A stretch of DNA of 64,000 nt. Origin: Candidatus Zambryskiibacteriota bacterium. GTDB taxonomy: Bacteria > Patescibacteriota > Minisyncoccia > Phycocordibacterales > WO2-35-19. The notes under the pieces were generated by a model, which was not told where the DNA came from, did not search any database, and saw only the letters and a list, made by a program, of their open reading frames with translations. The DNA lies in the NCBI GenBank assembly GCA_963840745.1, contig CAWJAC010000006.1, forward strand, positions 33,947 through 97,946, given 5' to 3'. Of the stretch, positions 11,429-24,144 are shown one piece after another. The position numbers and the translations under genes are program-made. The stretch's first letter is position 1; each line of letters starts with the position of its first letter.

Positions 11429-12161
11429 ATGGAAGGCATTATGCGCTGCAGCAGGTATTCATTTGGACCCAACCGCCTTCATTATTGCGGACCGGATGCC
11501 AATAGGGAACTGCGGGAACTCATAGAAAAAGACGGAGATAATTTTGGCCTCTCACATATTCTCAAACAATTTAAAACTCTTTTTCCTTACCTGCGTTATA
11601 TTGCTCACATAAATAATATAAAAGATCCTTTTAACAGTAGGGTAGTCGAGGCTTATTGGCTCGGCAATGATCTTTTGGAAAAAGTGGAACAAAGGACTCT
11701 TTTTGATTTTTTGATTGATGATTTGAAAGTTAAAGATAAACTTAGAAGCAAAGAATTCAATTGGCTGGAGGAAAAAATAAAAAATGGAGCAGTGCCTCAC
11801 CATTCATTTCATGTTTTAAATATCTGGCAGCAAGCCGGTCATAACGATTTGCTCGACGATCTAGTGAGGATGGATGAATGCCGGATTTCTTCAGGCATGG
11901 TGACTGAAGTGAAAGGACCTGAAATTAATGTATCAACAGAACCACTGGTTTATACGAATGGTAAATTTGCTTTGGGTGCTCGCCATTTCAAAAACTTTGA
12001 TTCGCCAATTAGAATCTGAGTACGATATCGAGCAAATCAAACCCGGGCAAATCGTATCCATCCACTGGAGCGTGCCGTGTGAAGTCATCACTCTCGCTCA
12101 AGCCTCGACTCTCCGCAAATATACTCTCCAAAACATCGCCTTCGCCAATCTCACTGTTTAA
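11429..12161 (+). CDS. Conserved hypothetical protein (DUF6390-like), one frame change near 11975-11985
   Basis: MRCSRYSFGPNRLHYCGPD...VVEAYWLGNDLL in ORF 11429-12019. It continues as ISKTLIRQLESEYDIEQIKPGQIVSIHWSVPCEVIT in ORF 11928-2161's frame (ORF 11928-12161). Family name given from memory. Confidence 0.5.
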
Positions 12162-12165
12162 AACT

Positions 12166-12210
12166 ACAATCCACAAAATCGCTTGGCAGATGTTTTTGTG
12201 AGTATATACT
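12166..12210 (+). promoter_or_regulatory. Island module copy A (partial): TTGGCA-16-TATACT promoter
   Basis: caatccacaaaatcgcttggcagatgtttttgtgagtatatact aligns with copy C (14009-14063). -35 at 12183-12188, -10 at 12205-12210. Confidence 0.6.
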
Positions 12211-12237
12211 TTATATGTAACTAAGAAAGAGACCCTT

Positions 12238-12702
12238 ATGCAGATACGTCTGCATTGGGGGCTCTTTCATTTTATCTGGAGAAATAATACAATTTATTGC
12301 TTAATGAATGAAGCTGAAATTATTTTATTAAACCGTCATTATCGCCGTGTTCGTTTTTATGTAAAACTTGAAAAGCTTGGATATCATCTGGTACTTAAAC
12401 CAGTCAAAACCTTTGACGACCCTGAGGGCAACCCAGTGCGTAAGGCAAATTGCGATGTTGATATGACACTTATGCTAGCCACAAAGAAAAATGATTTTGA
12501 CCGAGCTATCATTCTTTCGGGGGATGGTGATTTTCTGCCAGTTCTCAAATATTTGAAAGAGAGTGGAAAAGAGGTTTTGGTTTTGGCCAGAGGTCCGAGA
12601 ACCGCGAAGGAAATAAAACAATTTGCTGGGAATAAGTTTATGGACTTTGAATACTTACGGGAAAGGTTGAAACGAACTGACATAAGCGGACAGGAGATAT
12701 AA
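12238..12702 (+). pseudogene. NYN/LabA-like (PIN-like RNase fold) domain protein, N-terminally truncated
   Basis: KANCDVDMTLML...AIILSGDGDFLPVLKYLKESGKEVLVLA matches the NYN core. The N-terminal FIDGxN segment seen in the paralog at 14108-14631 is missing and replaced by module A plus a hairpin. Confidence 0.6.
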
Positions 12703-12807
12703 AAGCGAACGGCACCCATATAGGATGCCGTTCAGGTCTGATATGGAAAGTATATCAAACTGAAAATGAAAGTCAAATGAAGTATTGTGTATAAATGATG
12801 GTTTTCT

Positions 12808-12895
12808 TAACAAAATCATTTTCCACAGCAAAAACACGGCTAGAATAAGGGCTAAAATGACAATCCACAAAAAGACCCAAAATTGCTTTCAATAA
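12808..12895. repeat. Island module copy B (promoter part degenerate)
   Basis: cacagcaaaaacacggctagaataagggctaaaatgacaatccacaaaaag aligns with copies C and D. Confidence 0.7.
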
Positions 12896-12919
12896 AAAAT
12901 GACCGCAGAGAAACAAATC

Positions 12920-13093
12920 TCAGCGGCCGACTCTCCTTAGTGACAAGAGGAAAGCGAGAGTGAAGAACGCACCCATCAGTCCATACAATGGATAATGTGG
13001 TACGTCTCCGTCAATAAAAGCGTTTGATTTTAGCGTAGCCATCACGGCCATTATTGCTAAGACCAGAGACAAGACGGTTATCCTGGTTTTCAT
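12920..13093 (-). CDS. Small membrane protein (57 aa), below the ORF-track cutoff
   Basis: Own translation: MKTRITVLSLVLAIMAVMATLKSNAFIDGDVPHYPLYGLMGAFFTLAFLLSLRRVGR. GAGG lies 8 nt upstream of the ATG. Visibly GC-richer than its surroundings. Confidence 0.5.
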   Translation of the reverse strand: MKTRITVLSLVLAIMAVMATLKSNAFIDGDVPHYPLYGLMGAFFTLAFLLSLRRVGR

Positions 13094-13177
13094 ATGTCTT
13101 AACCTCTAATTTAGATAATAACCAAAATTATGGCTGTTGTACAGAATAAAATTCTTCTGCATTTATTGTCAAAAATT

Positions 13178-13576
13178 TTATATGTTTTCCAATATTACTT
13201 TTTCGTAATTTTTATTTATTCTATGATCTCCTTTGGGCACGATAATCATTTTTACATTTTTTTTGCATAATGGTTTGAATATTTTTTGCAAAAATTTTTC
13301 TTTTTCACCGATTATAAAAATTACTTGTTTAGCTTTGCATTTACCTAATGATTCAAATGGTGTCGGTGAACAAAGAATAAGTTTTTTTAGTTTTCTTTTC
13401 AGAGATATTTCAAGAGAAAAAACAGCTCCGAGAGAAAAACTAACAACCGTATCGCAGTTTTTTGATGATGTCGCTTTTCCCGTATTCCAATCAATATCAG
13501 CCACAATTAAATGCTTGGATAATGATTTATAATTTTCTTTTGTTTCTCCTAATCCTGGATAAAATATTGTTTTCAT
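13178..13576 (-). CDS. Small alpha/beta-hydrolase-like protein
   Basis: Start at MKTIFYPGLGE. Possible nucleophile elbow SFSLG and late GDH. The upstream part of ORF 13178-13672 overlaps the DUF397 gene and looks spurious. Confidence 0.45.
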   Translation of the reverse strand: MKTIFYPGLGETKENYKSLSKHLIVADIDWNTGKATSSKNCDTVVSFSLGAVFSLEISLKRKLKKLILCSPTPFESLGKCKAKQVIFIIGEKEKFLQKIFKPLCKKNVKMIIVPKGDHRINKNYEKVILENI

Positions 13577-13623
13577 AAATAAAAATAAATAGTGATGGGG
13601 AGCTCCGAGAACTCCCCATTGGA

Positions 13624-13824
13624 CTAGACATCGAACTCGCCCGCTTTGACGCCGCTGACGAACGCTTTCCACTCGGCTCGAGTGAAGAACGCCGTGGTTT
13701 TAGTCGGATCGTTGCTGTTGCGGACAGCTACGCCATTTGTCTTCACTGCCACAGCAACGCAGGTTTTGGGATTGTTTTTGGACCAAGACGAAACCCTGAA
13801 GTCCTGGTCTCGTACTTCAAACAT
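13624..13824 (-). CDS. DUF397 domain protein
   Basis: FRVSSWSKNNPKTCVAVAV...VAVRNSNDPTKTTAFFTRAEWKAFVSGVKAGEFD fits the DUF397 pattern typical of actinobacteria. GC-richer by eye. Strong SD (gaggaaaggtgg). Confidence 0.75.
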   Translation of the reverse strand: MFEVRDQDFRVSSWSKNNPKTCVAVAVKTNGVAVRNSNDPTKTTAFFTRAEWKAFVSGVKAGEFDV

Positions 13825-13954
13825 ATTTTTCCACCTTTCCTCAAGGAATGTCTAGCTAGAAACACTCCTATCCAAAGTACAAGTTGCCTTGTCTGATTTA
13901 AATATACGCCTTGGATTATTGTTGTCAATTTTTAAAATCAAAAGGTGAACAAGA

Positions 13955-14063
13955 CGAACAATTTTATTTTCAACAGCAAAAATACGGCTAAGATAATGGA
14001 TAAAATGGTAATCCACAGGAAAACATCAAAAATCGCTTGACAGAATTTTTAGTGCATATATAC
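13955..14063 (+). promoter_or_regulatory. Island module copy C (complete): conserved block plus TTGACA-16-TATACT promoter
   Basis: -35 at 14036-14041, -10 at 14058-14063. The upstream block aacagcaaaaatacggctaagataatggataaaatggtaatccaca is shared with copies B and D. Confidence 0.65.
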
Positions 14064-14107
14064 TATAGGAGTACTATTACGAAAAAGGAACCAAACGGTG
14101 TTAGTGC

Positions 14108-14631
14108 CTAAGGTCCCTTTTTCTTTTTATGCAGATATTCTATTTTTGATTTTATATCAACGGTGTCTAAATAATCAAAAAATCTTACGGTTAGGTGTTT
14201 ATACAAAGAAGAGGCTGATTTTTTATCGGGGAAAAGTATTTTAATAAATAAATTTTTACCCATCAAATAATCAACCAGTTTTCTATAATCTCCATCACCA
14301 GACACCAAAACAATTTTATCAAAATCTTTGTTATCAACAATATTTTTCATCACTTCAAAAACAATATCCGTATCAACATTTCCTTTTTTCTCCGTTATCA
14401 AATTTAAACTATGATATTTAAATATAATAACAAAACCAGCTTGTTGCAGGTTTTTGTATAAATCGTTTTGTGTTTCGGATGTAAACCCTAGAAAATAATA
14501 TGCTTCTCTGACTTTATACTTATCTTTCAAATAAATCCTAAATTTTTTAAAATCCACTTTCCAATTATTTTGAGTTGTTCCAAAGGTAGGTTTTGCCCGT
14601 CTATAAAGGCGAGATTATTTTCTTTTTTCAT
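14108..14631 (-). CDS. NYN/LabA-like domain protein, one frame change near 14575-14590
   Basis: ATG at 14631 gives MKKENNLAFIDGQNL. A frame switch then gives TFGTTQNNWKVDFKKFRIYL...GNVDTDIVFEV...IVLVSGDGDYRKLVDYL. Confidence 0.7.
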
Positions 14632-14761
14632 GATTTAAAGTATATCAAATTGTTGACAAAAATATTTTAAGTAATACCATTAAATACAGACAGAGTTTGT
14701 AAAATCTGTACTTTGGATAGGAGAGCCACTCAGAGCTTTCCTTGAGGAAAGGTGGAAAAGT

Positions 14762-14896
14762 ATGTATATACCATCAGGCGAAATTCGGGAACCCGATGTT
14801 CTCTGTACCGTCTATCGCGCCGGGGACGACGACTCGGTTTCTTCCGATGACTATGGTGAAGACAGCGATGCCGACAGCGGCGAACAGGATTGCTAA
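14762..14896 (+). CDS. Candidate 44-aa acidic peptide
   Basis: MYIPSGEIREPDVLCTVYRAGDDDSVSSDDYGEDSDADSGEQDC. It has the same leader, SD and ATG context as the DUF397 gene. Followed by the hairpin aagacccctc...gaggggtctt. An overlapping minus-strand ORF is an alternative reading. Confidence 0.35.
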   Translation: MYIPSGEIREPDVLCTVYRAGDDDSVSSDDYGEDSDADSGEQDC

Positions 14897-14919
14897 CAGC
14901 ACACCCAAGACCCCTCGCA

Positions 14920-15511
14920 TTTAGAGGGGTCTTAATTTGTCTCTAAAAAATTTTAGTATATTTTCGTAAGGTTCAGAAAGCTTGTAAGCCTTTTTGTAAT
15001 CTTCGCTGTATTTTATATCAGCAACTATTTTAAGCATATCAGGTTCATCTTCAAAAACTTTACGAAGTACGGCGAATACCAATATATGAGAGTTAACCGT
15101 ATCGCTATCTCCTTTTACAAGTAAAAAATCGTTATTTATTTTAAATAAATCTTTATTGGAAGCTAAAAGTCTGTGAGTAAGTTCGTGGGTGAGAAGTGAC
15201 TATAAAATTTTTAGGACCTTTGTGAGAACTAATTATTAATGGATTAGACATATCGCGATTAACTCCAGCAACTGCATAAACATTAATATCTTCCTTAAAG
15301 GACAAGTCCAGAGCAGAACAAATTCCATTTAGAACTTTCTCTTCATATTTAGCCCATATATCTTTATAAGCCTGTATCCTTTTCTCCATTTTTTCTTTAT
15401 CTGGAGGAACCCACCTTTCCATCCAGAACTTTTTACGTCAGGACTATTTTTTACATAAAAGTTAAAAAATGGTTCTAAAAGTTTGCCGTGTTGTATTATA
15501 ATCTTTACCAT
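14920..15511 (-). pseudogene. HExxH (HELTH) metallopeptidase-like gene with two frame changes
   Basis: MVKIIIQHGKLLEPFF... then FWMERWVPPDKEKMEKRIQ... then LTHELTHRLLASNKDL...KFFRDKLRPL, read in three frames. Confidence 0.5.
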
Positions 15512-15574
15512 CTTTATATTATAACAGAAATTTTTATATTTTAAAAATAGGGAACACGTTTTGAATAAAAAACA

Positions 15575-15650
15575 GAACAAAATTATTTTGATAGTCTAAA
15601 ATACGGCTAAGATAATGGATAAAATGGCAATCCACAAAAAGGGTTCAAAA
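15575..15650. repeat. Island module copy D, left part (separated from its promoter part by the IS)
   Basis: ctaaaatacggctaagataatggataaaatggcaatccacaaaaag. The promoter part resumes at 16673 (cttgacag...). Confidence 0.7.
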
Positions 15651-16672
15651 TGTTTTAGGCACACACATATGGCGGATTGATTAACTGATAATTTCTTAGG
15701 AATTCGTTGGGCGTTTTGCCGTTTAATCCGCAATGTTCTAGATCATTGTAATACATCATTCCACACTTTCATTTAATTTGCAAATCTGTTGAAGTTTTTG
15801 AATTTGTATTTTTCGTAGAATTTTTCTTGATCTTCCCTATGACTTCTCTCCACAGTTCCGTTTTGAGCCGGTTTTCCCGGATCAATCAGATAATGGAGAA
15901 TATTGTGTTTGGCAGAAAATTCATCAAGGGAATGGAGGTTTCTTGAAGAAAGATCGGATCGTCTGTATGACCGAAATATTAGTTTGTGAAAATCTGACCA
16001 TTGTCTGTTTTAATGGCTTGGATTTTGTATTTGAATATTCTCCATCACATTTTCAGAAAAACAACCGAATGAAAATTTGATTTCTTCGTCGAATATACTG
16101 CCAGATGTCTCCAGCGAGAAGCGGTATCAATAGCGGTATATTGGTAATATCTTTTGTTTTCAACACGTCCTGGAACGTATTTAACATCAATTTCGACTAA
16201 TTCTCCCGGCTTGTCTCTAGTGCTTTGATGTATTTGTATGAAATCTTTCTTGACTCGGTATTTGTGTACCAAATTTTCTTTTTCAAAATCTTGCCGATAG
16301 TTCGTAGGTGAATTTAAAGTTCCTTCTTTTTTTAATTGCCAGTGTATTTTGAGAGCACACTTTTTGGTTTTCTTTCTGATCAAATGACTCTTTCCTTGAT
16401 CCATATCGGAGTCTCTCTGGTCTGAGTCTTGGGTTCAGTTGATTTGGGTTCCAAGTGACCAATCTCCATGCTTCTTGCACTTAGCCAGCCATCTCTCGAG
16501 ACTGCGTTTGCTGTGTGGACAGACCTTTACCACATCCACTAATCTTAACTGTCTGTATGCGATGGGGAGCACCCATCTCAATCTCTCTTCTTTGATTGTT
16601 TTTGCCATATGTATTGCCATTGCCCCATTCTAGGGGAAAACCGCCAAAAGAGTGTACACATTACCTAAAACA
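15651..16672 (-). mobile_element. IS481-like insertion sequence, decayed
   Basis: Terminal inverted repeats TGTTTTAGG at 15651-15659 and its reverse complement at 16664-16672. HTH fragment in ORF 16435-16620. rve core DVKYVPG...YYQYTAIDTASRW in ORF 16045-16404. Further fragments down to about 15660 carry stops and frame changes. Confidence 0.75.
15660..16620 (-). pseudogene. IS481-family DDE transposase, multiple frameshifts and stops
   Basis: As above. The C-terminal part (KTDNGQ..., YNDLEHCGLNGKTP) is readable only across broken frames. Confidence 0.7.
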
Positions 16673-16673
16673 C

Positions 16674-16701
16674 TTGACAGTATTTGTGGGTTTGATATAT
16701 T
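16674..16701 (+). promoter_or_regulatory. TTGACA-16-TATATT promoter (right part of module D) for the downstream secreted-protein gene
   Basis: cttgacagtatttgtgggtttgatatatt aligns with the module C promoter. AAGGAG SD lies 5 nt before the ATG at 16763. Confidence 0.6.
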
Positions 16702-16762
16702 TGTGGACGGAGAGAAATAAACGGATCTTTGAATTTTGAATTTTTGGTTTCAAGGAGCAGTT

Positions 16763-17674
16763 ATGACCACGACGACTCGAATTTTCGTGTTGTGCATGGT
16801 GGCCGTTGTGGTCACCGTGAGTGCGGTCGCGCAAGCACCGCAAAACTTCAATCGGCCGACGGCCGACGAACTCTTCAACCGCGCCGGCCTCACGGGTCCG
16901 CGCCACATCGCGTCTGCCATAGCGTCTGTCATGGCCGAAGTTAATGTCGCTGGGCAACCGCAGTTGGTGGAGCCCATTGCTGTTCTTCGCTCGCCGGGTA
17001 ACATCGTGTCGACGTCAACGGCACCGATTAACATTGACGTGAAGAAGGACTATGGGAGGTCAGTGTGGGTAGCTGGGGAGGTATACCGCAACGGCCAAAA
17101 GATCGGCGAAGCGGCATACGCGAACAAGAAGTACGCGCAGACCGCTTTCGGGCCCGGGTATTACACTTCCCTTACCGGCGGCGGCATCATTCCCTTTGAC
17201 GATGTGTCTACCGGCAACGCTGGGGACTGCACCATCGTGATCGTCCAGCTTTTTGACAGCGAGAACGGCGGCGCGCCCATTGGGCCGCCTATGACTACCA
17301 CGTTCTGGAATCGCGTCAAGCCCGTGTCTGCTGTTGCCCCGATGGTCGTGAACTCCGCCAGCATTTTGGCGGACGGCGCTTCCATGCAGGTGAACGGCAA
17401 CGGTTTTCCGACCGGCGGTCAGGCGATCATCGTCGAAACCGGGGATCCGGAGTGGGACAGCGGTTTTGTCGCCACCACCTCGGCCGACGGCAAGACCCTG
17501 CGTTTCGCAATCCCGACCGGCAAAACCGGCAACTTCCTCTATCCGAGGATGTGGGCGGCCCAGTCCAATTGGACTGTAGTCGTGACCACCCTGGACGGCA
17601 CGAGTGTAACCGCCCCCAACCTGCTCCAGGTTCAGGGCAACAGTCGCGACCTGACAGTCGCCCAAGTTCCATAA
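16763..17674 (+). CDS. Secreted protein with signal peptide and C-terminal IPT/TIG-like beta domain
   Basis: MTTTTRIFVLCMVAVVVTVSAVAQAP signal. Visibly GC-rich. Followed by a hairpin terminator (aaaacctcga...tcgaggtttttt). Confidence 0.7.
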   Translation: MTTTTRIFVLCMVAVVVTVSAVAQAPQNFNRPTADELFNRAGLTGPRHIASAIASVMAEVNVAGQPQLVEPIAVLRSPGNIVSTSTAPINIDVKKDYGRSVWVAGEVYRNGQKIGEAAYANKKYAQTAFGPGYYTSLTGGGIIPFDDVSTGNAGDCTIVIVQLFDSENGGAPIGPPMTTTFWNRVKPVSAVAPMVVNSASILADGASMQVNGNGFPTGGQAIIVETGDPEWDSGFVATTSADGKTLRFAIPTGKTGNFLYPRMWAAQSNWTVVVTTLDGTSVTAPNLLQVQGNSRDLTVAQVP

Positions 17675-17835
17675 CTTTCTCGCGCCAAACGGCGCTCGCT
17701 AACCAAAACCTCGATAGTATGGATTGTCTACGGACAGTTCATACCGTCGAGGTTTTTTCTTTATCCACTTTTTTTGTTGACCTCCAACCCGAACACTTAT
17801 ATAATATTTGTATATTTAATTTTATAAAATAATTT

Positions 17836-18369
17836 ATGGAAAATATTGAAAATAATCCATATCCTACTTCTTCCACTTCTCCTCGCAAAACAAACAAACG
17901 ACTAATTATTCTTGTTTGCATTTTGATAATTGCGGCTGCGGGCTGGGCTTATTATGCCTATAAAATCAAAAGTAAAAATAATGCAAGCCAACATCTGCCT
18001 CAAACTTTCTCGTTTACTGCCGAAACCAAACTTGCTTCTTCCCAGCTTCCCTCCGGATTTCCCAAAGATTTTCCGGCAAATAACGAAGTGGCATACGTTC
18101 TTTATAACTACAATGGCGAAACTAACGACAAGCTTGCGGGCGTGAGGGAATTTACCACCACAAGGTCGGTGCAGGAAGCTTACCAATTTTACCATAGTTA
18201 TTTTTCACAATTGGGATGGACAATGGACCCCTCCCAGCAACTGTCCACTAACCACATAGATACCTATGCGACGAATGGTTCATTTTACGCTTCCATCAAA
18301 ATCGACTCTTATCCCCAAGCTTCCAAACATGTGAAGGCACTGGTATTAATAGTCATTACTTCCGATTAA
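17836..18369 (+). CDS. Membrane-anchored hypothetical protein
   Basis: 177 aa; one TM segment (LIILVCILIIAAAGWAYYAY) after a polar N-terminus. Confidence 0.55.
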   Translation: MENIENNPYPTSSTSPRKTNKRLIILVCILIIAAAGWAYYAYKIKSKNNASQHLPQTFSFTAETKLASSQLPSGFPKDFPANNEVAYVLYNYNGETNDKLAGVREFTTTRSVQEAYQFYHSYFSQLGWTMDPSQQLSTNHIDTYATNGSFYASIKIDSYPQASKHVKALVLIVITSD

Positions 18370-18387
18370 AAGTAACTTATTTTTGCC

Positions 18388-20872
18388 ATGAAAAAATTTC
18401 AGTGGTTTCGCATAGCTGTTGGTTTTAGCCTATTTTTTAGCCTATTTTTATTTTTTGGCGCCAAGAGCCTGCATGCTGACAGCATTTGCAGCAACCCCAC
18501 TTGCAATACTGATTATTATTGCGACAACGGTACTTGCGTATGCAGCAGTCAATCGTTGTGCGGCAACAATTGCGATAACGGCAACGGCGTTTTATGCTCC
18601 GACGGCACTTGCGTTTCTGATGTTGCGGATTGTGGAGCCGGTCATGGGTGTCCGCAAGAAGCGCCGTGCTATGATAGCGGTAGCGGTACTTGTTGCGCTG
18701 CTGATCCCAACGGTTCCATTGGCTGTAGTCTAGGGTGCGGAGGAAGCACTGGAGGCGGTACGTGCACCGGCGATTCGGATTGCACCGGCGGCGCGCGTTG
18801 CGTAAACGGGGGTTGTACCACTGCTTGTACTGTGACGTGCAACAACAATTCGGATTGCGGGACGGATGAGTGGTGTGATGATCCGGGCGCTTGCGGAGCC
18901 TATTGCGTGTCTAATTTTGAACACAGCGTATGTGAAGGCTCTTCCTGTAGGACATATTCAGGCCCCGGTGACATGGACTGCGGTTCCGATGCCGATTGCG
19001 CTCCCAGTCCAACTTGCGTCAACGACGGCACTTGCCACAGCGGGGAAACCTGCAATCTTTGCCCCGTTGATTGCGGCGCCTGCATTGTTAACGGAGCCTG
19101 CCAAAATCCTCCCAACGGCAACATCTATGTTACGGCTCCGACCGGGACTTTATGCAGTAGCGGCATCGCTAGCCCTTCCACCCTTAGCGGCAGCGGCCCC
19201 TGGTCTTGGCAATGTACCAGCCCTAACGGTGGCACCACTGCTTCCTGTTCCGCCTCCGTTCCCAATCAGCCCACGCCCACATTACCGCTACCCCGGACTT
19301 CCTGCCAAGCACAGGAGGCGCCACCCAAGTTTACGCGGCTTCTACCAATGCCAATAATTGTTATGTGACTTCCAGCCCCACTGTGGACGCGGGGTTCTGG
19401 ACAACGCTTGGGCCATACACATACAATCCTTACATAAACATCTCCGATGTAACCCAAACTACCGTTTTTACCGAAACCTGCACCTATAACAGCCCGGCTT
19501 ATCCCTACTACATTCTTGGCCCCGTGACCAGTTCCGTGACGGTCAGTGTCGGTACAATCATTGGAACTTTAACCCCCTGCGAAACCGATATGTGTGCCAT
19601 GACTTATTATGGCGACGGGACAAATCCGGCCAACGCCACCTATCTTTACTATCCGTCCCATGATCAAATGATTTCCAGTTATTGTATTCCAGTATACGAC
19701 AATTGCAGCAGCCCGGCTTACAACATCAACGGCACGAATTATTGGATTAGGGAAGGCGGCAAAGACACCACGACTTGTTTAAACCTGCAAACGCCGGTTC
19801 CGGCTTGCGTGGTTCCTCCTCCGACCGGTCTTACCGGCACTTGTCCTTCTCCGAACACCACGGCCAACTTGAGTTGGACTGCTCCTTCGGGCTACAATAC
19901 TTTTTATGTTCGCTTAAATTCCACTGAAATGGCGGTTATACATGGCCGATTCCGAGCGGAATATCCACGTCAGTCACTGGTACCACATGGAATCCTCCAA
20001 CCACCGCGGGTCAAACTTACTCTTGGTGGGTGAGTACCGCCGGCCCAAGTGGAACTTACAGCAGCGATGCTGTTGGAAGTATCAGTTGTATCACTATCCC
20101 CACCACTCCCACCGGCCTCTCGGTCACTCCCAGCACCTGCGGCAACAACTGGCTCAACATTTCTTGGAACGCTTCTGCCGGAGCCACTTCATATCAGGTC
20201 TATCGCGATGGAGGACCTTTTCCTGTCTACAACGGATCAAGTCTGGCTTTCTCTGACACCGGACTTGCTTTAGGATCAAATCATTCATATACAGTTAAAG
20301 CTACAAACGCGCAAGGTTCTTCATCTTTAAGTGCTTCGGTGTCTAATACAGTAGCGTCTGCCTGTGCGGTTGCCACTGCCAATATAAGTGCTGATTCAAA
20401 TAGTATTCCATACAATACCTCTACCACTTTGCATTGGTCATACTCCAATGCCACTTCCTGCACCATTACTCCACCGGCTACTATCGGAGGTTATCCAAGC
20501 GGTTCGGGCAGTGTTTCCACCGGCAATTTAACAGTTAGCAGAACGTACACCATTTCTTGCAACCCCGGGAATACAAATTCCAGCGCTACAATTAATGTTA
20601 CAGGCGGGTCAAATGATTTATGTATTACAAAGTCAGGGCAAGGGACGGTTACTCTTAATCCTGTGGGAACACCGGATTCAACTTGTTGGAGTTATGGTTC
20701 AGGCGCTACAGTTCAACTTACTGAAAATCCTGGATCAGGCAGGGTATTTACCGGGTGGGGAGGTGACTGTGCTTCCTTTGCTAAAAGTGTAAGCTGTAAT
20801 TTAATAATGAATACCTCCAAAAGTGTTATTGCCAACTTCATGGTAATAGATCCTAATTACAAGGAGTTTTAA
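18388..20872 (+). CDS. Large secreted cysteine-rich protein with FN3-like and InlB B-repeat-like C-terminal domains; two frame changes as assembled
   Basis: Signal peptide, then dense Cys repeats (CDNGTCVC, CTGDSDCTGGARCVNGGC). FN3-like segment LSVTPSTCGNNWLNISWNASAGATSYQVYRDG. C-terminal GRVFTGWGGDC...VIANF. Frame switches near 19260-19285 and 19926-19930 (gaaatgg, an A-run). Confidence 0.7.
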
Positions 20873-20877
20873 ACTTC

Positions 20878-21243
20878 GTGAATGTTTTTGTATTTGGAAA
20901 TATAAATTTAGACAATGATTCGCTGCCATTGCGAATTTTGCCGCGGCTGCAGGAGAAGTTTCCCGATATTGAGTTTGAAATTAGGGATCCAAACGAAGAG
21001 TGGGAGGTACCGGAAGAGTTTGTCATTATTGACACCGTTATTGGTATAAAAGGAGTAAGGGTTTTTAAAACTTTGGATAAATTTTTGTCTGCGCCTCGGG
21101 TCTCAATGCACGACTTTGATTTTTTAACTAATCTGCAATATCTATCCAAGCTCGGCAAAATTAAAAAAATAAAAATCATCGGCGTGCCGCCGGATATGAA
21201 AGAATCAGAAGCTATAAAAAAAGTGAGCGCTATCTTGCGATAG
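20878..21243 (+). CDS. Hydrogenase maturation endopeptidase-like protein
   Basis: VFVFGNINLDNDSLPLRI...EFVIIDTV...SMHDFD resembles the HycI/HoxW pattern. Adjacent to hydrogenase genes. Confidence 0.55.
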   Translation: MNVFVFGNINLDNDSLPLRILPRLQEKFPDIEFEIRDPNEEWEVPEEFVIIDTVIGIKGVRVFKTLDKFLSAPRVSMHDFDFLTNLQYLSKLGKIKKIKIIGVPPDMKESEAIKKVSAILR

Positions 21244-23475: not shown

Positions 23476-24144
23476 TTAATCAAGAGTGTCAAAGGTTCCC
23501 TTTGACACTATCCTTTTATATAATTTTGTGTTTTCATTTATGAAATTTTTGGTGCCCCCAAATATTTCGGTTAGAAATTGTTTGTGAACTATATGGTTTT
23601 TTCTATCAAAAATAAAATCATTATAACTGCTCCATTTGTATTCTTGCGGTTCATTCACAACTTTATCTTTTACTGGGTTCATATGAATATAGGAAGAGAT
23701 GAGCATCAATTGCGGATCAGTTTTTATTGGTACAGCTTTGAAAGCATCTTGAAAAACATGCCCAACTCTTTTGTGTTTTAGGTTTATGTATTTGGAGAAA
23801 CTGGTAAATACTTTTAATACAAGTTTTGAAATTGATTCCTCCCCACATTGTTCTATTAAAAGATGTATGTGATTTGGCATTAAACAGAAAGCATGTAATT
23901 TAAAACTTTTTGATTCTAAACTTTCTATTCTTATCCTTGATTTGGGGGATTTGGTTATTTCACTTTTATTTAAATCTCCTTTTTCAATCCCAAGACCCAA
24001 CCCTAATCTGAAAAGGAAAGCTCGATAGTCCTGTTCATCGCGGAATATGATCTCCTTGTTATTCCCACGGTTATAAAGATGATATATAGAACCTTTGGCA
24101 AAGTTTTTATAATCTCTGTTTCCCATACCATAGTTATACCACAA
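23476..24144 (-). CDS. IS200-like Y1 transposase of the REP-associated (RAYT) type
   Basis: FCLMPNHIHLLIE (HUH motif) and SSYIHMNPVK (catalytic Tyr region). Flanked on both sides by the same hairpin. Confidence 0.8.
   Translation of the reverse strand: MWYNYGMGNRDYKNFAKGSIYHLYNRGNNKEIIFRDEQDYRAFLFRLGLGLGIEKGDLNKSEITKSPKSRIRIESLESKSFKLHAFCLMPNHIHLLIEQCGEESISKLVLKVFTSFSKYINLKHKRVGHVFQDAFKAVPIKTDPQLMLISSYIHMNPVKDKVVNEPQEYKWSSYNDFIFDRKNHIVHKQFLTEIFGGTKNFINENTKLYKRIVSKGTFDTLD
23485..23509. repeat. REP hairpin, left of RAYT: agtgtcaaagg ttc cctttgacact
   Basis: Perfect 11-bp arms. Overlaps the RAYT stop region (codes VSKGTFDTL). Confidence 0.85.

What the first reader, a model, noticed from the sequence alone, without database searches (positions are those of the whole stretch)
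12166..16712. Four copies of an AT-rich promoter-bearing module punctuate a mosaic accessory island
**Seen in the sequence**
- The block (C/T)AACAGCAAAAA(T/C)ACGGCTA(A/G)(G/A)ATAA(T/G)GG(A/C)TAAAATG(G/A)(T/C)AATCCACA... recurs at 12808-12895, 13955-14063 and 15575-15650. Its 3' part also occurs at 12166-12210.
- In the best copies it continues into ATCGCTTGACAG-N16-TATACT, a near-consensus promoter pointing rightward.
- Between copies lie unrelated and often damaged or compositionally foreign genes. These are a truncated NYN gene, a 57-aa membrane ORF, a small hydrolase, DUF397, a frameshifted NYN gene, an acidic mini-ORF, a broken HExxH gene, an IS, and a GC-rich secreted protein.

**Inference**
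The module behaves like a reusable cassette boundary or portable promoter in a hypervariable region.

**Secondary observation**
- Read on the minus strand, the conserved block encodes a hydrophobic stretch: WIVILALILAVFLLW / WITILSIILAVFLLL / WIAILSIILAVF-stop.
- Several differences between copies are at third codon positions.
- There is no ATG or SD, so I do not call a gene.
Basis: partly seen in the sequence, partly recalled or inferred. Interest (0 to 1): 0.6.

Follow-up and report, generated by a model that had tools for sequence, protein, structure and literature searches.

The report
Repeated promoter block in insertion hotspot
A roughly 110-base promoter-carrying DNA block is repeated four times, all in one direction, inside an 8.7-kb strain-specific gene island of an ultra-small groundwater bacterium; it most likely marks where foreign gene segments were repeatedly spliced in, not a new kind of mobile element.

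Summary
Three full copies (12808-12895, 13951-14073, and 15572-15652 continuing at 16665-16712) and one partial copy (12159-12213) share 77-88% identity. None is expected by chance and none lies elsewhere in the window.

New findings:
- The copies lie in an 8.7-kb insertion (12162-20877) between two genes that are adjacent in a relative (L025). Another relative (L026) has a different 1.6-kb insert there.
- A second strain (L029/L005) has two copies of the module at the homologous place, upstream of the same secreted-protein gene, with unrelated cargo between them.
- Five of six copies that reach the promoter position keep a near-consensus sigma-70 promoter. Only the copy before the secreted-protein operon faces an intact co-oriented gene. 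Three fire straight into terminator hairpins.
- The hydrophobic minus-strand reading is not coding.
- The module has no hairpin and no terminal inverted repeats. No recombinase domain was detected among the window's larger ORFs, and no copy turned up in 185,579 reference genomes.

Best reading: this is the operon's promoter and upstream region, reiterated as a recombination anchor while cargo was added or swapped, probably after DNA uptake. The mechanism is inferred, not shown. It is closest to "putative mobile promoters". Interest is moderate to low.

The parts
12159..12213 (+). Module copy c0. It is partial (3' part only) and starts at the TAA stop codon of the DUF6390 gene, which is the left edge of the island. 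Promoter TTGGCA-16-TATACT lies at 12183-12210.
   Evidence: D3, D4; nhmmer E = 0.0068
12225..12268 (.). Long hairpin with a T-run on both strands (bidirectional terminator-like), about 15 nt after the c0 promoter.
   Evidence: self inverted match; -26.3 kcal/mol, z = -4.9
12238..12702 (+). Cargo segment 1: a 5'-truncated NYN-domain gene fragment. The Pfam match starts at profile position 53 of 145.
12799..12902 (+). Module copy c1 (subtype B). The promoter part is degenerate (TTTCAA, no -10 hexamer). It abuts the terminator of the minus-strand 57-aa gene.
   Evidence: no + strand promoter listed here; E = 2.7e-24
12920..13824 (-). Cargo segment 2: a 57-aa membrane ORF (12920-13093), a 132-aa alpha/beta-hydrolase-like gene (13178-13576) and a DUF397 gene (13624-13824). 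The last two are 81% identical in DNA to a gene pair on contigs carrying a protein from the 90% cluster that also holds Candidatus Yanofskybacteria proteins.
13951..14073 (+). Module copy c2 (subtype A), the most complete. Promoter TTGACA-16-TATACT lies at 14037-14064. It points into the terminator and 3' end of the convergent NYN gene.
   Evidence: E = 2.8e-31
14108..15511 (.). Cargo segment 3: a frameshifted NYN gene (14108-14631, minus), an acidic 44-aa ORF (14762-14896, plus) and a broken gene with an HELTH motif (14921-15511, minus, at least two frameshifts).
15572..15652 (+). Module copy c3 (subtype A), upstream part. It is cut off from its promoter by an insertion sequence.
   Evidence: E = 9e-21
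15651..16673 (-). Degenerate insertion sequence (HTH plus rve integrase core, several frameshifts). Its ends are TGTTTTAGG...CCTAAAACA. It is inserted inside c3, directly upstream of the -35 hexamer.
16665..16712 (+). Module copy c3, promoter part: TTGACA-16-TATATT with TG (16674-16701). It lies 62 nt upstream of the ATG of the secreted-protein gene. In the sister strain this joins directly to the upstream part, with no IS.
16763..20872 (+). GC-rich (49-53%) operon of secreted, Cys-rich and InlB-B-repeat proteins. This is the resident cargo that the last module copy drives.
12162..20877 (.). The whole strain-specific insertion. It lies between the DUF6390 gene (stop at 12159-12161) and the HycI-like gene (GTG at 20878).

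Best explanation
The module is the promoter plus about 70 bp of A-rich upstream DNA of the island's secreted-protein operon. It lies in an insertion hotspot between the DUF6390 gene and a HycI-like gene of a Parcubacteria-group (CPR/Patescibacteria) genome.

The block has been reiterated in direct orientation because it served again and again as the stretch of homology at which incoming DNA was joined. I infer that such DNA was taken up from relatives and added or swapped by homologous recombination in a module, with an illegitimate or microhomology join at the other end.

The copies are therefore mainly recombination anchors or scars. Only the copy next to the operon has a plausible messenger RNA to make. 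The others fire into terminators or have decayed.

Shown:
- the repeats themselves;
- the hotspot;
- the different cargo in two strains;
- the promoter matches and the hairpins that follow them;
- the absence of coding signal, hairpin structure and a nearby recombinase.

Inferred:
- the recombination mechanism;
- that the promoters are active.
For: 1. **Hotspot.** In L025 the DUF6390 stop codon overlaps the start of the homolog of window gene 20878-21243. In L026/L027 an unrelated 1.6-kb insert sits at the same spot, flanked by a 16-bp direct repeat.
2. **One orientation, one locus.** All copies point the same way and are confined to this island.
3. **Sister strain.** L029/L005 carries two modules with the same subtype order (B, then A, then operon) but wholly different cargo.
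4. **Modules outlast their neighbours.** Modules are 77-88% identical, while flanking genes are unrelated. The two NYN genes share only about 27% amino-acid identity.
5. **Imprecise joints and decay.**
   - One NYN gene is truncated by about 50 codons next to c0.
   - At least four cargo genes are frameshifted.
   - c0 is joined to the DUF6390 stop at a TAAAA microhomology.
   - These fit illegitimate joins better than precise site-specific cassettes.
6. **Mosaic copy.** By eye, m2 is c2-like on its left and c3-like on its right. The c2 and c3 copies share a 30-nt identical run.
7. **Cargo of foreign origin.** The DUF397-hydrolase pair is 81% identical in DNA to contigs from the Yanofskybacteria-containing protein cluster. 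That homology stops at the coding-sequence borders.
8. **Uptake is plausible.** DprA is encoded in the window. Competence-mediated uptake has been proposed for Patescibacteria (PMC12455944).
9. **Functional placement of one promoter.** The operon-proximal promoter sits 62 nt from the start codon, with an AAGGAG ribosome-binding site.
Against: - The left boundary of the module is sharp and shared by c1, c2, c3, m1 and m2. The right boundary coincides with the end of the -10 hexamer. Plain homologous or illegitimate recombination does not predict such discrete edges; a defined functional or mobile unit would.
- Five of six copies keep a 10-11 of 12 promoter match even where the spacer sequence has diverged completely (m1 versus c2). 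This hints at selection on promoter function in copies that have no obvious gene to drive.
- Copy-to-copy identity is low for RecA-dependent recombination, with at most about 30 identical bases in a row.
- Only two strains are available, and the rest of this genome could not be searched.
Confidence: 0.5

Rival explanations
1. Selected portable promoter or regulatory unit (a 'putative mobile promoter'). The roughly 110-bp block is a functional unit kept by selection at each cargo border. It would drive or control neighbouring genes, for instance by making short antisense RNAs against the 3' ends of convergent, possibly toxic, cargo genes such as the NYN nucleases.
For: - Five of six copies keep near-consensus -35 and -10 hexamers at the same position, despite a divergent spacer.
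- The module edges are discrete.
- Pairs meet the published identity and length cut-off of at least 50 nt at 80% or more (PMC3488235).
- The promoters of c2 and m1 face the 3' ends of convergent genes and share their terminators. This layout is used by some antisense-regulated toxin systems (my own knowledge of Bacillus type I systems).
Against: - Three promoters meet a terminator within about 15-20 nt of the expected start.
- The short predicted RNAs share no sequence.
- c1 has lost its promoter.
- c0 faces a truncated gene fragment.
- No copy lies outside the island.
- Much of the cargo is pseudogenes, so there is little left to regulate.
Confidence: 0.2
2. Site-specific recombination site. 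The module is an att-like or integron-like site at which small circular cassettes are inserted by a recombinase encoded elsewhere. c0 would be the hybrid site at the start of the array.
For: - The copies are direct repeats, one at each cargo border, all in one orientation.
- The left edge is sharp.
- c0 shares only the part to the right of TAAAA..AATCCACA, as an attL-type hybrid would.
- The independent insert in L026 is flanked by a 16-bp direct repeat.
Against: - No tyrosine or serine recombinase domain was found among the ORFs of 150 aa or more that were scanned, which covers all those not nested in a larger annotated gene.
- The module does not fold: z-scores range from -1.9 to +1.4 on both strands.
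- It has no consistent inverted repeats, so it is unlike attC.
- Cargo genes are truncated at borders, point both ways and carry their own promoters.
- Copies differ by 12-25%, with no long invariant core beyond AATCCACA.
Confidence: 0.12
3. Small hydrophobic peptide gene on the minus strand (WIxILSIILAVF...), repeated as a gene family.
For: That frame is open in four of five full copies. Between c1, c2 and c3 several changes are conservative.
Against: - There is no ATG and no ribosome-binding site.
- The upstream frame is broken by a 1-nt indel in L005.
- c3 carries a stop codon.
- m1 reads WIVIPASVLAVFLRL, with Pro and Arg inside the 'helix'.
- Substitutions show no codon periodicity (12/20, 10/21, 11/21).
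- The same wobble positions are shared by an equally open plus-strand frame.
Confidence: 0.02
4. Assembly artefact. Alternative cargo from co-existing strains was threaded one after another through a shared repeat in the metagenome assembly.
For: - The locus is strain-variable.
- The window genome is a metagenome-assembled contig.
- Assemblies of close relatives break near the module: L005 ends 60 nt after it, and L028 starts 26 nt before the gene.
Against: - Copies are only 77-88% identical, with at most 30 identical bases in a row. That is too short to tangle a graph at the usual final k-mer sizes.
- c0 is a partial copy fused to a core gene.
- An independent assembly (L029, ENA) carries two copies on one contig. 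It agrees with a JGI contig at 99.95% over 2115 nt.
Confidence: 0.04

Closest known systems
Putative mobile promoters (Matus-Garcia, Nijveen and van Passel 2012, PMC3488235)
   Same: - Both are 50-100-nt non-coding blocks, at least 80% identical, that carry promoter signals.
- Both recur next to non-homologous genes within one genome.
- Small families are typical for both.
   Different: - Those were defined as lying within about 150 nt upstream of co-oriented coding sequences, anywhere in the genome.
- Here all copies sit in one island in tandem order. Most face a terminator or a convergent gene rather than a gene to drive.
Small variable segments and insertion hotspots, with homology-facilitated illegitimate recombination (Touzain et al. 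2010, PMC2884548; de Vries and Wackernagel 2002, as cited there)
   Same: - A fixed intergenic junction carries different short inserts in different strains.
- One-sided homology plus microhomology joins would give truncated cargo and short direct repeats, as seen here.
   Different: - Classical examples replace or add a segment without leaving a reiterated 75-110-bp anchor at every border.
- The mechanism has not been shown in CPR bacteria.
Integron cassette arrays and CALINs (clusters of attC sites lacking an integrase)
   Same: Both are arrays of short, unrelated gene segments, each bounded by a copy of a repeated site, with a promoter at the array.
   Different: - The site here has no hairpin-forming imperfect palindrome and no GTTRRRY core.
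- No integrase is present.
- Cargo points both ways, has its own promoters and terminators, and is often truncated.
Promoter-bearing intergenic repeats such as Correia elements or other MITEs (my own knowledge)
   Same: Both are short repeats of about 100 bp that can carry outward promoters and sit between genes.
   Different: - MITEs have terminal inverted repeats and target-site duplications, and they are scattered in many copies.
- None of these features holds here.

Membership tests
Putative mobile promoter (PMP) | Pairwise alignment of at least 50 nt at 80% identity or more between promoter regions | tested here: met
   c2-c3: 85% over 62 nt. c1-c3: 82% over 67 nt. c2-m2: 87.5% over 88 nt. 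c1-m1: 81.6% over 76 nt. c1-c2 falls just short at 79%.
Putative mobile promoter (PMP) | Upstream and downstream coding sequences of the copies are not homologous | tested here: met
   A self tblastx of the island finds only the modules, the leader repeat and a 27% NYN-NYN match. The cargo of L029 has no match in the window.
Putative mobile promoter (PMP) | Each copy lies within about 150 nt upstream of a co-oriented coding sequence that it could drive | tested here: not met
   This holds only for c3 and m2, which precede the same gene. c0 faces a truncated fragment. c1, c2 and m1 face terminators and convergent genes.
Sigma-70 type promoter | TTGACA-like and TATAAT-like hexamers spaced 16-18 nt apart | tested here: met
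   Matches of 10-11 out of 12 in c0, c2, c3 and m1. m2 reads TTGACA-17-TACGTT with an upstream TG. c1 is degenerate. Activity was not tested.
Integron attC site / CALIN | Imperfect palindrome that folds into a long hairpin as a single strand | tested here: not met
   Folding z-scores range from -1.9 to +1.4 on both strands for four copies. No consistent inverted repeats.
Integron attC site / CALIN | Integron integrase nearby, or at least co-oriented promoterless cassettes | tested here: not met
   No recombinase domain in the window ORFs scanned. Cargo lies on both strands with its own promoters and terminators.
MITE or other small transposable repeat | Terminal inverted repeats, target-site duplication and dispersed copies | tested here: not met
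   No terminal inverted repeats. No duplication is seen at the borders. Copies occur only in this island.
Small hydrophobic protein / type I toxin | Start codon with a ribosome-binding site, an intact frame in all copies, and substitutions concentrated at third codon positions | tested here: not met
   No ATG or Shine-Dalgarno sequence. A stop codon in c3 and Pro/Arg in m1. Variable sites are 12/20, 10/21 and 11/21.
Strain-variable genomic island at an insertion hotspot | Flanking genes conserved and adjacent in relatives, with different content at the same junction | tested here: met
   L025 has no insert and its flanking genes overlap (ATGA). L026/L027 carry an unrelated 1.6-kb insert. The window carries 8.7 kb.
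Structured RNA family (Rfam) | Match to a curated covariance model | tested here: not met
   Only tRNA-Asn passes gathering thresholds in the window. Only chance-level hits appear in 12000-17000 and in L029.

The most novel reading that the evidence does not exclude
The module could be the recombination site of a cassette-array system in CPR bacteria that has not been described. It would act like an integron but use a non-hairpin site of about 75-110 bp carrying an outward promoter. It would be served either by a recombinase encoded elsewhere in the genome or by the competence and RecA machinery. Small gene segments from other CPR lineages would then be captured and shuffled at a fixed chromosomal hotspot.
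Probability: 0.12. Interest if true: 0.75.

Novelty: new member of a known kind. Interest (0 to 1): 0.35.

Why it matters
CPR/Patescibacteria have tiny genomes and cannot be grown alone, so how they gain and lose genes is known mostly from statistics on islands. This locus gives a concrete, sequence-level picture of one hotspot:
- a fixed junction between two core genes;
- unrelated inserts in each lineage;
- in one lineage, a reiterated promoter block at every cargo border.

If the block really is the anchor for uptake-driven cargo exchange, it would show how a streamlined genome can keep a small 'scratch pad' for foreign genes. The finding is useful as a worked example. It does not open a new field.

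Tried and rejected
- **Searches for further copies.**
  - A strict and a loose pattern against GTDB species representatives gave 0 hits and 2 chance hits, in a Mycoplasmataceae genome and a Clostridium CRISPR array.
  - Viral contigs gave 0 hits and 8 chance hits.
  - JGI metagenomes gave 1 true hit and 5 chance hits.
  - Phage and plasmid collections gave none.
- **More distant homologs of the secreted protein** (36-54% identity; contexts L017-L024, fetched for the 54%, 41% and one 36% homolog) have no module upstream.
- **Concatenated query.** I joined eight cargo proteins into one 940-aa query to save a search. The candidate list filled with 8000 unrelated proteins and nothing scored, so the third protein search was wasted.
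- **Exact look-ups of window proteins** (PAP2, the 177-aa protein, P0007) found no contig. The rest of this genome could therefore not be read.
- **RNA structure** of the module is not better than shuffles, and Rfam gives nothing.
- **attC, MITE and peptide readings** were each tested and rejected.
- **Xer/dif-type site.** I considered this by eye only. The centre of the module is not a dyad of two 11-bp arms.
- **DNA-uptake sequence.** AATCCACA occurs 7 times in the window on both strands, four of them in the modules, so it is not enriched genome-wide.
- **Inverted partial module.** The minus-strand promoter at 12776-12749 resembles the c3 promoter at 72% (I4). The profile search does not pick it up, so I treat it as an ordinary promoter.

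Full report
**1. The observation**

The repeat is real.
- The repeat finder returns a three-copy family of 76 nt at 12808-12883, 13956-14031 and 15575-15650, at 75-80% identity to the reference copy. The 3' part recurs at 12159-12213.
Its promoter half matches two. None is expected in shuffled sequence.
- A profile built from the copies finds the same sites, plus a detached promoter half at 16665-16710. It finds nothing else in the window.
- I call the copies c0 (partial), c1, c2 and c3.

c3 is split by an insertion sequence.
- A degenerate rve-type IS lies at 15651-16673, with ends TGTTTTAGG...CCTAAAACA and several frameshifts.
- It sits between the upstream part of c3 and its -35 hexamer.
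- In a related metagenome contig the two halves are contiguous.

The promoters are near-consensus in three window copies.

| Copy | Sequence | Coordinates | Match |
|---|---|---|---|
| c2 | TTGACA-16-TATACT | 14037-14064 | 11/12 |
| c3 | TTGACA-16-TATATT | 16674-16701 | 11/12 |
| c0 | TTGGCA-16-TATACT | 12183-12210 | 10/12 |
| c1 | none listed | n/a | degenerate |

- Two NYN-domain genes: one lacks about 50 N-terminal profile positions and one has a frameshift.
- DUF397.
- A small protein whose 90% cluster is named alpha/beta hydrolase.
- A broken gene with an HELTH motif.
- The IS.
- A GC-rich secreted protein.

**2. Where the locus sits**

The flanking gene at 11429-12161 is a frameshifted DUF6390 gene.
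- Its homologs are numerous in Patescibacteria. Named hits are Candidatus Zambryskibacteria and Vogelbacteria.
- In the relative L025 (84% protein identity), the DUF6390 stop codon overlaps the ATG of the homolog of window gene 20878-21243. That gene is a weak HycI-like protein and is followed by NiFe-hydrogenase genes.
- Window bases 12162-20877 (8.7 kb) are therefore an insertion between two genes that are otherwise fused end to start.
- In L026/L027 (81% identity) the same junction holds an unrelated 1.6-kb insert. It is flanked by a 16-bp direct repeat, TAAATATATGATYAAA.

This is an insertion hotspot that was hit independently in different lineages. c0 begins exactly at the DUF6390 stop codon, so the left edge of the island is a truncated module.

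**3. A second strain**

One true homolog of the module was found in 241 million metagenome records. This is L005, later extended by an ENA contig, L029, that matches it at 99.95% over 2115 nt.
- One module copy (m2) lies directly upstream of the same secreted-protein gene leader: 97% identity over 33 nt, with no IS.
- A second copy (m1) lies 2.1 kb further left. It starts at the stop codon of an acyltransferase gene.
- The cargo between m1 and m2 is three minus-strand ORFs and a GNAT gene. It has no counterpart in the window.

The copies fall into two subtypes.

| Subtype | Copies | Identity |
|---|---|---|
| B | c1, m1 | 81.6% |
| A | c2, c3, m2 | 85-88% |

The order B, then A, then operon is the same in both strains.

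More distant homologs of the secreted protein (36-54% identity), in the contexts fetched for three of them, have other neighbours and no module. Scans of GTDB species representatives, viral contigs, phages and plasmids found no true copy.

**4. What the module is not**

It is not coding.
- The hydrophobic minus-strand frame has no ATG or ribosome-binding site.
- Its upstream part is out of frame in L005.
- c3 carries a stop codon, and m1 reads WIVIPASVLAVFLRL.
- Substitutions are spread evenly over the codon positions: 12/20, 10/21 and 11/21 variable sites, and 53, 52 and 54 pairwise differences.

It is not a structured RNA or an attC-like hairpin.
- Folding energies are no better than shuffles on either strand.
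- There are no consistent inverted repeats.
- Rfam finds nothing.

It is not a MITE. It has no terminal inverted repeats, no target duplication and no dispersed copies.

No tyrosine or serine recombinase domain was found in any of the window ORFs of at least 150 aa that were scanned. The only transposases are the broken IS and an IS200-like gene at 23476-24144.

**5. What the copies face**

- Only c3 and m2 have a plausible message. Their promoter lies 62 nt from the ATG at 16763, with an AAGGAG ribosome-binding site.
- c0 is followed within about 15 nt by a long hairpin with T-runs (12225-12268; z = -4.9), then by a gene fragment.
- c2 is followed by the terminator and 3' end of the convergent NYN gene.
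- m1 has a TTGACT-17-TATAAT promoter. It is followed by a very stable two-hairpin element plus a terminator (z = -7.8) and a convergent gene.
- c1 has lost its promoter and abuts the terminator of a convergent 57-aa gene.
- On the left of c1, c2 and c3 there is in each case a minus-strand promoter 27-32 nt away. For c2 and c3 it drives the cargo leftwards.

**6. Interpretation**

The facts that need explaining are these:
- direct orientation of all copies;
- confinement to one hotspot;
- different cargo between conserved module subtypes in two strains;
- modules far more alike than anything around them (the two NYN genes share about 27% identity);
- imprecise cargo ends and many pseudogenes.

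I think the most likely account is as follows.
- The block is the operon's promoter region.
- It has served as the homologous anchor for repeated addition and exchange of cargo.
- The incoming DNA was probably taken up from the environment. DprA is present, and competence has been proposed for this phylum (PMC12455944).
- The other end was joined illegitimately, as in homology-facilitated illegitimate recombination (cited in PMC2884548).

Three further points fit this account.
- c0 is joined to the DUF6390 stop at a TAAAA microhomology.
- m2 looks mosaic, c2-like on the left and c3-like on the right.
- The DUF397-hydrolase pair is 81% identical in DNA to contigs carrying a protein from the 90% cluster that also holds Yanofskybacteria proteins. 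That homology ends at the coding borders.

Two points count against it.
- The module edges are sharp.
- Near-consensus promoters are retained in copies with nothing obvious to drive.

These keep two rivals alive: a selected promoter or antisense unit, and a site-specific recombination site served in trans. I put the anchor model at about 0.5, the selected-promoter model at 0.2 and the site-specific model at 0.12.

An assembly artefact is unlikely. The copies share at most 30 identical bases in a row, and two independent assemblies agree for the sister strain.

**7. Comparison with known systems**

- The module meets the published identity and length rule for 'putative mobile promoters', and the rule that flanking genes be unrelated. 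It fails the rule that each copy sit upstream of a co-oriented gene (PMC3488235).
- It resembles an integron array only in outline.
- I file it as a new member of a known kind: a locus-restricted family of repeated promoter blocks in a variable island.

It is a clear worked example of island turnover in a CPR genome, but not a new type of system on present evidence.

Noticed in passing
window 13821-13881 (minus) and 14707-14765 (plus): A second reused regulatory block. A 60-nt leader with ribosome-binding site and ATG (TGTACTTTGGATAGGAG...TTCCTTGAGGAAAGGTGGAAAA-TATG) is 82% identical between the two sites, with a 28-nt core at 96%. It sits in inverted orientation upstream of two unrelated GC-rich small genes, DUF397 and an acidic 44-aa ORF. 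The two copies bracket c2 and the frameshifted NYN gene, so recombination between them would invert that segment and swap the two promoters.
   Followed up: partly
L029 1229-1325: Directly after the m1 promoter lies a very stable element of two hairpins inside a long stem, followed by a terminator (-47 kcal/mol, z = -7.8). It has no Rfam match. It may be a small RNA gene or only a compound bidirectional terminator.
   Followed up: partly
window 12183-12275, 14037-14130 and 12776-12700 (minus): In three places a good promoter match is followed within about 10-20 nt of the expected start by a terminator hairpin. The predicted transcripts would be only about 45-60 nt long and share no sequence.
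   Followed up: partly
window 13175-13804 versus L031 5873-6504: The DUF397 plus alpha/beta-hydrolase gene pair is 81.4% identical in DNA over 636 nt, and 88-92% in protein. The matching pair lies on contigs carrying a protein from the 90% cluster that also holds Candidatus Yanofskybacteria proteins. There it sits between a sigma-70 gene and DUF8128/TraG-like genes. The homology stops at the coding borders, which suggests transfer between CPR lineages.
   Followed up: yes
window 11975-11985: The conserved DUF6390 gene carries a one-base frameshift near an AAAAA run, about 180 nt before the island edge. Relatives have one continuous frame. The public annotation of this genome also ends the protein early at 192 aa.
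   Followed up: partly
window 12156-12167 and 20866-20877: The two ends of the 8.7-kb island carry a similar 12-mer, GTTTAAAACTAC and GTTTTAAACTTC (10 of 12 identical). Each contains the stop codon of the gene on its left. It may be the remnant of a target duplication, or it may be chance in AT-rich DNA.
   Followed up: no
L026 4777-4792 and 6354-6369: The independent 1.6-kb insert in a relative is flanked by a 16-bp direct repeat, TAAATATATGATYAAA (15 of 16 identical). This repeat is the ancestral DUF6390-stop / next-gene-start junction. The insert carries its own terminator and a TTGACA-17-TATACT promoter.
   Followed up: partly
window 23476-24144 and L024 360-815: An IS200-like Y1 transposase gene lies next to the hydrogenase genes, 2.6 kb from the island's right edge. 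Another Y1 transposase lies directly upstream of a distant homolog of the secreted-protein gene in L024.
   Followed up: no
window 16763-20872: The right half of the island is GC-rich (49-53%, against about 40% for the window). It encodes a secreted protein, a Cys-rich 326-aa protein and a protein with an InlB B-repeat domain. Homologs of the first gene occur in other groundwater contigs next to different genes, so the operon itself looks horizontally mobile.
   Followed up: partly
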